Source of the DNA: the human T2T-CHM13v2.0 reference genome, Homo sapiens
Direction: 5' to 3' (one strand)
Assembly (NCBI RefSeq): GCF_009914755.1
Contig: NC_060934.1
DNA length: 64,000 nt
Shown: positions 36,135 through 37,757 of the stretch, one piece after another
How the letters are laid out: the number at the start of each line of letters is the position of its first letter
Numbering within the stretch: position 1 is the stretch's first letter
The notes under the pieces: model-generated
Databases searched by the model: none
The model's input: the letters and a program-made list of their open reading frames with translations, nothing else
Told to the model about the DNA's origin: nothing
Position numbers and translations under genes: made by a program

Positions 36135-37616
36135 CTAATGATGTGCTGCTTCCAGTTCAATATTCAGCTGTGCATTTTTTCTTATTTCATCAAATGAATA
36201 GCTTTTTGTCACCTTGCCATTCTTGAAGACAGTATGGAGAAGATCCTGACCATATTCCTCAAGGTCTCCTTTTCCTTCTTCCAGTGTAACAAAATTCCCT
36301 GCTGGCGTCCTATGTAAAGATAATCGGCCCTTTTTGGACCTTTTGTTGGGATCAGCAACCGGGTCCTTGAAGACGTTAATCCCAAGGCCATTAGTTACAA
36401 CATAGCTACACTTGAAGGAACAATTCAAGAGATCTCTTGTTAACTTCTGTAGCAAACCTCCACCAGAACCGAAGGCAATATTTTCAATACTCCACATTTT
36501 TTGTTTCATGCCTTCTACAATCTCTTGTAAGGTATTAATATCTACTCCATCCCCTTGAATAACTCTAAGATAAGGTGGCAGCAACTTGTAACCCTTTGAG
36601 TTCTCAGTAACAGGAAACTTCTTACCTAAAATCTCCAAAACCTTTAACACAGTGTCAAGAGGGTTTCCAGAATCAGGTCTGATTATTAGTGGTGCCTGTG
36701 TACTTCTCGATACTATTAAATGTCTTAGATCTTCACCCCATATTTTCTCACACGCATTATAAATGTCATAGCTATTGCTGACCACAGATACAGGCACTGA
36801 TGAAAACTGTGTTACAATATGTTCAAAAGCATCTTTTTCATGGTCTTTCCCCCAAGCTGTTATGGTACTGTGTTCTGCTGCTGGAACAGAATAGCCTGGA
36901 ACAGGATCTTTCGTTCCATAATATTTTTTATTTAGAGCAAGTCCTGCTACTGTATCTGTTCCTTTGAAGTTAACCAAATGAGCAGATGCTCCTATGCCAG
37001 CAGTCTCTTGGGAAGAGACTCCTCTGTAGCCAAAATCATGTAACTTGTATTCCAGACCATCTAAGTTACCAGAAGTTTCTAACAAATATTTGGCCAATAT
37101 TTTCTTCTGCTCTCTAGAATTTGTGGCCACTGTGATTGGATACCAGGACTGAACAAGAATAGTCTCAATCCAATTTGTAAGCCAGTAACACTCTGGATCT
37201 GTGTTTTCCACCGTGAAGAGAACATTTCCTCTGGGAATGACAAAGCCTTCAGGAACAGCTTTTATTTCTATTGGAAGATGCCCATCATATTTCTCAAGAA
37301 TGTAGTTCCATCCTTTTTCATTAACGACATCATCTTGGAAATGTTCTTTGTAGACATCTTTGGCTTCCTGGATTTTCTCTTTGGTTACTACTTTACCTTT
37401 TAAGTACTTATTAAGAATGTACTGCAACCCATAAAATACTGTTTCCTCATATTTCACCTTCCTTAATTTGGAGTTTTCTGTCTTCTTTTCACGGCATTCA
37501 AAGTAGGAATAAACTTTGCTTGTGTTGGGTGGATATTGTTTATAGTGAGTAACCTGCCCAGCCAGGGGCGTGCGCGCCGGGCTGGCCCGGCAGGGAAAGC
37601 CCCGCTCACTCTCCAC
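36135..37616 (-). CDS. Open 493-codon frame: 21 novel residues from a GTG start, then NAMPT residues 20-491; translation unproven
   Basis: Translation matches human NAMPT from [10 protein letters not shown] to LEAAHH* with no stop or frameshift. Apparent changes versus the recalled parent are F96V, I227N and D279N. The first codon is GTG, and the first in-frame ATG inside this ORF is Met368. Confidence 0.4.
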
Positions 37617-37757
37617 TGCGGGCCCCTGGGGCCGTTACCTAACTGGTCCCAGCTCCAGGCCAAGAGGCCGCGCTTCAGGGAAGGGCATGCGCTCGCCGGC
37701 GACGCCCAAGCCCCGAGCCCCGAGCACCGGAGCCCGGGAGTCCGCTGGGGCCCGCCA
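37554..37757 (-). promoter_or_regulatory. CpG-island-like GC-rich 5' leader carried in with the retrocopy (probable alternative NAMPT first exon)
   Basis: About 204 bp with about 21 CpGs counted by eye, inside the TSDs, joined as GGGCAG|GTTACTCAC exactly at Val20 (recalled exon-2 start). Confidence 0.7.

What the first reader, a model, noticed from the sequence alone, without database searches (positions are those of the whole stretch)
37554..37757. Retrocopy fossilises a non-canonical NAMPT transcript with a different first exon
Seen: the canonical N-terminal codons (MNPAAEAEFNILLATDSYK) are absent. Instead a 204-bp GC-rich segment lies inside the TSDs and joins through ...GGGCAG|GTT exactly at Val20. 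CAG is a typical exon end and Val20 is the recalled exon-2 start, so a random 5' truncation is unlikely. Inference: L1 captured a germline or early-embryo NAMPT isoform starting from an alternative promoter, probably in the intron-1 CpG island. The parent locus may therefore itself make the GTG-type, Tyr18-less isoform.
Basis: partly seen in the sequence, partly recalled or inferred. Interest (0 to 1): 0.72.

Follow-up and report, generated by a model that had tools for sequence, protein, structure and literature searches.

The report
NAMPT retrocopy preserves alternative first exon
The NAMPTP1 pseudogene on chromosome 10 is a young L1-made copy of a NAMPT transcript that began with an alternative, non-coding first exon lying in intron 1 of the parent gene; it is a tidy example of a known kind and not a surprise.

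Summary
Inside exact 14-nt target-site duplications, the minus-strand NAMPT retrocopy starts with 204 GC-rich bases. These replace canonical exon 1 and join at ...GGGCAG|GTT to Val20.

The segment has one other match in the genome (94%, E 2e-87). That match lies in NAMPT intron 1 on chr7, in sense orientation, 272 nt past the exon-1 donor and inside the promoter CpG island. There it ends at a 9-of-9 consensus donor, CAG|GTAAGT. Exon 2 starts at GTT behind an AG acceptor. All 10 of 10 junctions fit GT-AG introns.

Two points remain unsettled:
- Sequence alone cannot separate an internal start site (favoured, about 0.6) from a canonical-start transcript that used this far donor and was then 5'-truncated (about 0.3).
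- The "GTG-type, Tyr18-less isoform" has no support. The new exon holds one ATG, which opens a 17-codon uORF closed by TAA, and the next in-frame ATG is Met368.

The copy is young: 23 mismatches in 2702 bases. Retrocopies as archives of transcript isoforms are an established idea, so interest is modest.

The parts
37758..37771 (-). 5' target-site duplication (minus-strand reading AAAAGTTCCATTCC)
   Evidence: Exact 14-nt direct repeat with 35030-35043. It is preceded by TTTT, which gives a TTTT/AAAA nick site on the opposite strand.
37757..37757 (-). First base of the insertion (T), which does not match the parent (A at that place)
   Evidence: Alignment to chr7 starts at retrocopy base 2. It is either an untemplated base or a later substitution.
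37554..37756 (-). Copy of NAMPT alternative first exon ('exon 1b'): 203 nt here, 210 nt in the parent
   Evidence: Its only other genomic match is C7:107599771-107599980, minus strand, 94%. It differs by 5 mismatches and one missing 7-nt GCTCGGG unit. The parent copy ends at CAG|GTAAGT.
37635..37688 (-). 17-codon upstream ORF (ATG ... TAA) inside the exon-1b copy, in the NAMPT frame
   Evidence: The same ATG and TAA are present in the parent.
37397..37553 (-). Exon 2 copy, starting at Val20 (GTT)
   Evidence: 157 of 157 bases identical to C7 exon 2. The parent acceptor is ...acatAG|GTTACT.
36246..37396 (-). Exon 3-10 copies, joined exactly at the parent's exon boundaries
   Evidence: Each junction has one and only one GT-AG-compatible position. 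There are 11 mismatches and no gaps.
35055..36245 (-). Exon 11 copy: end of the coding sequence, stop TAG at 36135-36137, and the 3'UTR up to the parent's poly(A) site
   Evidence: There are 7 mismatches and 4 gap events, one of them a 38-nt palindrome at 36074-36111 that the parent lacks.
36135..37616 (-). Open frame of 493 codons. It comprises 21 codons of the exon-1b copy from GTG, NAMPT residues 20-491, and the stop.
   Evidence: Pfam NAMPT_N matches profile positions 10-98 of 98, and NAPRTase matches 1-238 of 239. There is no ATG at its head.
35044..35054 (-). Poly(A) tail: 11 A, plus 4 A shared with the TSD
   Evidence: The parent continues with tggacatc at this point.
35030..35043 (-). 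3' target-site duplication

Best explanation
NAMPTP1 is an L1-mediated processed retrocopy of a fully spliced NAMPT transcript. The first exon of that transcript was not canonical exon 1. It was an alternative exon ('1b', about 210 nt) inside the promoter CpG island, 272 nt downstream of the exon-1 donor in intron 1.

Shown: that exon ends at a perfect consensus 5' splice site (CAG|GTAAGT) and was spliced to the normal exon-2 acceptor. Exons 2-11 and a normal poly(A) site follow. The insertion has L1 hallmarks.

Inferred: transcription started inside the CpG island, downstream of the exon-1 donor, at or a little upstream of the retrocopy's 5' end. The next strong donor then defined the first exon. 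The RNA was present in germline or early-embryo cells, which heritable retroposition requires. Because it lacks the NAMPT start codon, this isoform is most likely an unproductive, non-coding by-product of a broad CpG-island promoter and not an mRNA for a new protein.

The copy arose recently, a few million years ago by its 0.85% divergence.
For: - **Unique mapping.** The 204-nt segment matches only itself and C7:107599771-107599980. The match is on the same strand as NAMPT, at 94% and E 2.3e-87 (2 of 2 scored candidates; repeated).
- **Position in the parent.** Canonical exon 1 ends at ...TCCTACAAG|gtaaag. The segment begins 272 nt later and ends at ...GGCTGGGCAG|gtaagt.
- **Donor strength.** Between the exon-1 donor and the end of the segment there are only three donor-like sites with at least 7 of 9 consensus matches: exon 1 (7/9), +164 (CAG|GTGAGG, 8/9) and the exon-1b donor (9/9).
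- **The 5' end favours an internal start.** It lies downstream of both other donors. An internal start explains why neither was used.
- **Splicing.** Exon 2 starts at GTT after an AG. 10 of 10 junctions each have exactly one GT-AG-compatible position.
- **CpG island.** G+C is 0.67-0.83 and CpG observed/expected is 0.75-1.03 across the whole region.
- **L1 hallmarks.** These are an exact 14-nt TSD, poly(A) at the parent's cleavage site and a TTTT/AAAA target.
- **Youth.** There are 23 mismatches in 2702 aligned bases plus 5 indel events, an uninterrupted poly(A) tail and identical TSDs.
- **Coding potential.** There is one ATG in exon 1b, opening a 17-codon uORF ended by TAA. The next in-frame ATG is at residue 368.
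- **Published background.** A review states that Ensembl lists 13 NAMPT transcript variants that differ, among other things, in transcription start site (PMC9103253, passages read). This shows that alternative starts are annotated, though the text does not say where.
Against: - No cap or TSS data could be consulted. Processed pseudogenes are often 5'-truncated, and a retrocopy's 5' end gives only a minimum extent of its template RNA.
- The RNA just upstream of the 5' end is extremely G-rich: (GGC)n followed by GGGGGG, with (GGGGCT)n further up. A reverse transcriptase could plausibly stop there.
- The first base of the insertion (T) matches neither the parent nor the extra G sometimes left by a copied cap (that rule is recalled, not tested).
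- I could not check whether exon 1b is present in GENCODE, RefSeq or cDNA collections.
- The 3-versus-8 split of nonsynonymous to synonymous differences hints weakly at constraint on the frame (P 0.02-0.07). A pure non-coding reading would not predict that.
Confidence: 0.62

Rival explanations
1. The promoter was canonical and the donor was different. The source RNA started at the canonical NAMPT TSS, skipped the exon-1 donor, and used the far donor 482 nt downstream, giving an extended exon 1. The L1 reverse transcriptase then stopped 210 nt short of that donor, so the retrocopy only appears to have a new first exon.
For: - 5' truncation is common in L1-made copies. The 3 other NAMPT retrocopies found in this genome all lack the 5' part: they start at query 1405, 417 and 2474.
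- The template just upstream of the 5' end is a G-rich, structure-prone tract.
- The far donor is stronger (9/9) than the exon-1 donor (7/9).
Against: - It requires skipping two usable donors, at 7/9 and 8/9.
- The extension is 482 nt, which is not a multiple of three. Such an RNA would be a frameshifted, probably decay-prone species and so a poorer template (inference).
- No data at hand show such read-through.
Confidence: 0.3
2. Protein-coding isoform. The exon-1b transcript, and perhaps NAMPTP1 itself, is translated from a near-cognate codon into a NAMPT with a new 21-residue (GTG at 37616) or shorter (in-frame CTG) N-terminus that lacks residues 1-19, including Tyr18.
For: - The frame is open from the TAA of the uORF through exon 2. 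The GTG has G at -3 and G at +4.
- The retrocopy keeps 472 NAMPT codons open, with 3 nonsynonymous against 8 synonymous differences. P(3 or fewer nonsynonymous) is 0.018-0.068 under neutral models.
Against: - There is no ATG. An upstream ATG in the same frame ends at TAA, and 21 out-of-frame ATGs precede the next in-frame one.
- An open frame is expected by chance for so young a copy: P(no stop) is 0.60-0.72.
- The deficit of nonsynonymous changes is not significant once transition bias is allowed for. At least 2 of the 8 synonymous differences are CpG losses on the parent's side.
- Tyr18 stacks with Phe193 on the nicotinamide/FK866 ring (PMC7235340, passages read), so such a protein would lack an active-site residue. 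Pfam's NAMPT_N match also loses its first 9 profile positions.
Confidence: 0.05
3. Chimera or rearrangement. The 204 nt were joined to a 5'-truncated NAMPT cDNA by template switching of the reverse transcriptase, or by a later DNA rearrangement, and not by splicing.
For: Template-switch chimeras of L1-made copies are known (recalled). The first base does not match the parent.
Against: - Both sides of the joint coincide to the base with splice sites of one and the same gene: a 9/9 donor and the exon-2 acceptor. They have the same orientation and the right order, 7.2 kb apart in the parent.
- The segment lies inside the TSDs.
- It maps to no other gene.
Confidence: 0.02

Closest known systems
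Processed pseudogenes (retrocopies) as archives of transcript isoforms
   Same: An intronless, polyadenylated, TSD-flanked copy records an exon combination of the parent that differs from the reference mRNA. PMC4772013 (passage read) states that retrocopies have served as archives of transcript isoforms. It cites Shemesh et al. [quoted passage not shown] I saw only that paper's reference entry, because it is not held.
   Different: This is one locus, and it concerns a first exon rather than an internal splice variant. The recorded isoform lacks the start codon of the parent's reading frame.
RefSeq annotation of NAMPTP1 (curated pseudogene, 35055..37555, minus strand; hub table)
   Same: Same insertion, same 3' end and same identity as a NAMPT pseudogene.
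   Different: The annotated span stops where similarity to the canonical mRNA ends. The TSD-bounded insertion runs 202 nt further, to 37757, and that extra part comes from NAMPT intron 1.
Alternative NAMPT transcripts in Ensembl
   Same: A review reports 13 variants that differ in length, stop codon, transcription start site and domain content. Only two of them carry the NAPRTase domain (PMC9103253). Long-read studies report NAMPT isoform changes in blood and in infected cells (PMC13002829; bioRxiv 10.64898/2026.09.22.753599; passages only, no exon detail).
   Different: None of the passages I read gives exon coordinates. Whether one of these variants is the 1b-exon 2 form was not tested.
Other NAMPT retrocopies in this genome (C16:39041644-39043006 at 89%; C5:145535600-145540354 at 75-79%; a C1 fragment at 71%)
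   Same: All derive from NAMPT mRNA. The C16 and C5 copies share with NAMPTP1 a 3'UTR palindrome that the parent now lacks.
   Different: They are older and lack the 5' part. None of the 3 loci matched the parent's exon 1 to exon 1b region (0 hits for that query), so they say nothing about the first exon.

Membership tests
L1-mediated processed pseudogene (retrocopy) | All introns removed exactly at the parent's exon boundaries | tested here: met
   10 of 10 junctions each have one GT-AG-compatible position in the chr7 gene.
L1-mediated processed pseudogene (retrocopy) | Poly(A) tail at the parent's cleavage site | tested here: met
   The copy reads ...AAATTGTA followed by A11-15. The parent continues with tggacatc.
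L1-mediated processed pseudogene (retrocopy) | Target-site duplications flanking the whole insert | tested here: met
   An exact 14-nt repeat at 35030-35043 and 37758-37771.
L1-mediated processed pseudogene (retrocopy) | L1 endonuclease-type target (TTTT/AA; consensus recalled) | tested here: met
   The empty site would read ...GGTCTTTT|AAAAGTTCC..., giving a TTTT/AAAA nick on the priming strand (read).
Alternative first exon of NAMPT | Maps in sense orientation within the parent gene, upstream of exon 2 | tested here: met
   C7:107599771-107599980, minus strand. This is 272 nt after the exon-1 donor and 7.2 kb before exon 2.
Alternative first exon of NAMPT | Ends at a functional-looking 5' splice site in the parent | tested here: met
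   CAG|GTAAGT, 9 of 9 consensus positions.
Alternative first exon of NAMPT | Own transcription start (cap evidence) at its 5' end | not testable with these tools
   No CAGE, cDNA or long-read data are on hand. The retrocopy's 5' end gives only a minimum extent.
Alternative first exon of NAMPT | Seen in present-day transcripts or annotation | not tested
   No transcript annotation of the chr7 locus was available. The papers read give no exon coordinates.
Functional retrogene | Intact reading frame with a start codon | tested here: not met
   The frame is open for 493 codons but is headed by GTG. The only upstream ATG ends at TAA after 17 codons.
Functional retrogene | Significant deficit of nonsynonymous change | tested here: inconclusive
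   3 nonsynonymous against 8 synonymous differences. P is 0.018-0.068 depending on the mutation model, with no outgroup to polarise the changes.

The most novel reading that the evidence does not exclude
The exon-1b leader is a regulated, germline-expressed NAMPT start. The long frame would be translated from the well-placed GTG (or the in-frame CTG) downstream of the uORF. The product would be a NAMPT whose first 19 residues, including the active-site Tyr18, are replaced. Such a protein could still pair with full-length NAMPT and damp its activity, or act in a non-enzymatic role. On this reading NAMPTP1, which keeps the same 493-codon frame with 3 nonsynonymous and 8 synonymous differences, would be a young retrogene for that form and not a dead copy.
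Probability: 0.04. Interest if true: 0.7.

Novelty: new member of a known kind. Interest (0 to 1): 0.3.

Why it matters

- **Promoter output.** The retrocopy shows that, within the last few million years, the germline made a spliced NAMPT RNA without the start codon. That RNA came from the downstream part of the promoter CpG island. Some fraction of "NAMPT expression" may therefore be unproductive, which matters for reading promoter, CAGE and RNA-seq data.
- **Annotation.** The annotated NAMPTP1 span is 202 nt too short.
- **Read assignment.** NAMPTP1 is about 99% identical to NAMPT mRNA, so short reads assigned to it in expression studies deserve caution. Exon 1b reads could be split between the two loci.
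- **General principle.** None is new: retrocopies as isoform fossils are established.

Tried and rejected
- **Other NAMPT retrocopies as independent witnesses of the first exon.** All 3 (C16, C5, C1) lack the 5' part, and none matched the 910-nt parental exon 1 to exon 1b query.
- **Rfam.** No family reached its gathering score in 34500-38500, so the GC-rich piece is not a known structured RNA.
- **5' flank as a repeat.** 37772-38250 matches only itself in the genome.
- **Literature (all 10 searches used).**
  - 'NAMPTP1' gave 23 papers. Judging by the titles and abstract starts of the 20 listed, plus one paper opened, they are expression lists, or false matches to NAMPT^P158A.
  - I also searched 'NAMPT' with 'alternative first exon' (5 papers), with 'alternative promoter' and 'intron 1' (1), with 'processed pseudogene' (5), with 'first intron', 'transcription start site' and 'CpG island' (2), with 'exon 1b' (1, about C9orf72) and with 'alternative transcription start' (7).
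  - I also searched the Ensembl-style names NAMPT-202 to NAMPT-207 (2 papers).
  - Nothing I saw in the listings, or in the passages of the papers I opened, describes this exon or the origin of the 5' end of NAMPTP1. Supplementary tables were not opened and may list the transcripts.
- **Shemesh et al. 2006** could not be read because it is not held.
- **Template-switch chimera** was considered and rejected, because both sides of the joint sit on splice sites of one gene.
- **Constraint on the frame** was tested and found inconclusive.

Full report
**1. What is in the window**

Read on the minus strand, the sequence runs in this order:
- a 14-nt repeat, AAAAGTTCCATTCC
- 204 GC-rich bases (37757..37554)
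- NAMPT coding sequence from Val20 to the stop codon
- the NAMPT 3'UTR
- a pure A run
- the same 14-nt repeat again

The repeat is exact. On the + strand it is GGAATGGAACTTTT, at 35030-35043 and 37758-37771. The site in front of it reads TTTT|AAAA, which is the usual L1 endonuclease target (consensus recalled).

The 204 bases are 76% G+C with 21 CpG. They stand out from the AT-rich flanks and from the coding part. The canonical first 19 codons are absent. The joint is ...GGGCAG|GTTACTCAC. The coordinates and description in the finding are exact.

**2. Where the 204 bases come from**

A search of the window's own genome found two places, both scored:
- the segment itself
- C7:107599771-107599980, minus strand, 94% identity, E 2.3e-87

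The full 2717-nt retrocopy gave 21 matches:
- 11 lie on chr7 in colinear order and tile query positions 2-2703. These are the new 5' piece plus NAMPT exons 2-11.
- The rest are the copy itself, three older retrocopies (C16, C5, C1) and short hits to a GT/AC repeat.

In the chr7 sequence, canonical exon 1 ends ...GACTCCTACAAG|gtaaag. The segment starts 272 nt further on and ends ...CCCCTGGCTGGGCAG|gtaagtctcc. The whole stretch is CpG island, with G+C of 0.67-0.83 and CpG observed/expected of 0.75-1.03.

**3. Splicing**

Exon 2 of the parent begins at GTT, behind ...ttctttacatAG. For each of the 10 joints in the retrocopy, exactly one position is compatible with a GT donor and an AG acceptor in the parent.

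Between the exon-1 donor and the end of the segment there are three donor-like sites with at least 7 of 9 consensus matches:
- the exon-1 donor, AAG|GTAAAG, 7/9
- CAG|GTGAGG at +164, 8/9
- the donor at the end of the segment, CAG|GTAAGT, 9/9

The template of NAMPTP1 was therefore a spliced RNA in which an intron-1 exon, here called exon 1b, was joined to exon 2.

**4. Promoter or splice-site choice?**

The sequence shows the 3' end of exon 1b but only a minimum for its 5' end. There are two readings.

(a) *Internal start.* Transcription started inside the island, downstream of the first two donors, and the next strong donor defined the first exon.

(b) *Far donor plus truncation.* Transcription started at the canonical TSS, splicing used the far donor, and reverse transcription stopped early.

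For (a): the 5' end lies beyond both other donors, so neither needs to be skipped. CpG-island promoters often start broadly (general knowledge). A review says the Ensembl NAMPT variants differ in start site (PMC9103253).

For (b): truncation is common. The three other NAMPT retrocopies all lack the 5' part. The RNA just upstream of the 5' end is a G-rich tract.

The first base of the insertion (T) matches neither the parent nor a cap-derived G, so it does not help. I put (a) at about 0.6 and (b) at about 0.3. Cap-based data would decide.

**5. Coding potential**

Exon 1b holds one ATG (37688). It opens a 17-codon frame that is the NAMPT frame but is closed by TAA (37635-37637). Parent and copy agree on this.

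From there the frame stays open into exon 2, which is why an ORF list shows 493 codons from a GTG at 37616. The next in-frame ATG is at residue 368, and 21 out-of-frame ATGs lie before it.

In reading (b), the 482-nt extension is not a multiple of three, so the canonical ATG would run out of frame.

On either reading the isoform does not encode NAMPT by ordinary initiation. A GTG- or CTG-started protein is possible in principle, but nothing here supports it. It would also lack Tyr18, which stacks with Phe193 on the nicotinamide ring (PMC7235340). Pfam's N-terminal domain match begins at profile position 10.

**6. Age and state of the copy**

Against the parent's exons there are 23 mismatches in 2702 aligned bases and 5 indel events:
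- 5 mismatches and a missing 7-nt repeat unit in exon 1b
- 11 mismatches in the 472 codons
- 7 mismatches and 4 indels in the 3'UTR

Five of the 23 mismatches are CpG transitions, 3 lost in the copy and 2 lost in the parent.

With an ape substitution rate of about 1e-9 per site per year (recalled), 0.85% divergence means roughly 4-9 million years. This is an inference without an outgroup.

The 11 coding differences split into 8 synonymous and 3 nonsynonymous (F96V, I227N, D279N). I used a model in which the copy drifts and the parent accepts only synonymous change. The chance of no stop codon is 0.60-0.72. The chance of 3 or fewer nonsynonymous changes is 0.018-0.068, depending on transition and CpG bias. 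That is suggestive at most.

**7. Comparison with what is known**

That retrocopies archive transcript isoforms is established. PMC4772013 says so and cites Shemesh et al. 2006, which I could not open.

NAMPTP1 is an annotated pseudogene. Its RefSeq span (35055..37555, hub table) ends where similarity to the canonical mRNA ends. It therefore omits 202 nt of the insertion.

In ten full-text searches, and in the passages I read, I found no description of this exon or of the origin of NAMPTP1's 5' end. Supplements were not opened, and annotation databases were not available. The exon may well be in GENCODE already.

**8. Verdict**

- The core interpretation is supported: an alternative first exon from the intron-1 CpG island with a GT donor, copied by L1.
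- The alternative-promoter step is likely but not shown.
- The protein-isoform extension is unsupported.

This is a clean new example of a known kind, of modest interest.

Noticed in passing
window 36074-36111 (minus strand); parent L004, C16 copy L005, C5 copy L006: A 38-nt palindromic microsatellite, (GT)n-GCATGC-(AC)n, lies just after the stop codon. It is present in NAMPTP1 and, in diverged form, in the two older retrocopies on C16 and C5, but it is absent from the parent NAMPT 3'UTR in this assembly. The parent therefore seems to have deleted it after NAMPTP1 arose, and the retrocopies preserve an ancestral 3'UTR element. Whether the deletion is fixed in humans was not tested.
   Followed up: partly
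window 36135-37616 (minus strand): The retrocopy keeps all 472 NAMPT codons open, with 8 synonymous and 3 nonsynonymous differences from the parent. This is a weak, non-significant deficit of nonsynonymous change (P 0.018-0.068). There is no ATG at the head of the frame.
   Followed up: yes
window 37556-37757: The RefSeq NAMPTP1 span (35055..37555) is 202 nt shorter than the TSD-bounded insertion. The omitted part is NAMPT-derived.
   Followed up: yes
L002 about 1700-1960 (C7, NAMPT intron 1 between exon 1 and exon 1b): Runs of (GGGGCT)n and (GGC)n, at about 80% G+C, lie on the sense strand just upstream of exon 1b. They are quadruplex-prone by eye. They could influence where transcription starts or where a reverse transcriptase stops. 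They were not folded or tested.
   Followed up: no
G000 C16:39041644-39043006; C5:145535600-145540354; C1:2872464-2872642: Three further NAMPT-derived retrocopies, at 89%, 75-79% and 71% identity, all lack the 5' part. Their names and ages were not looked up.
   Followed up: partly
window 37687-37710 against L002 about 1665-1690: The GCTCGGG unit is present three times in the parent's exon 1b and twice in the retrocopy. This small tandem-repeat slippage accounts for the only indel in the segment.
   Followed up: yes
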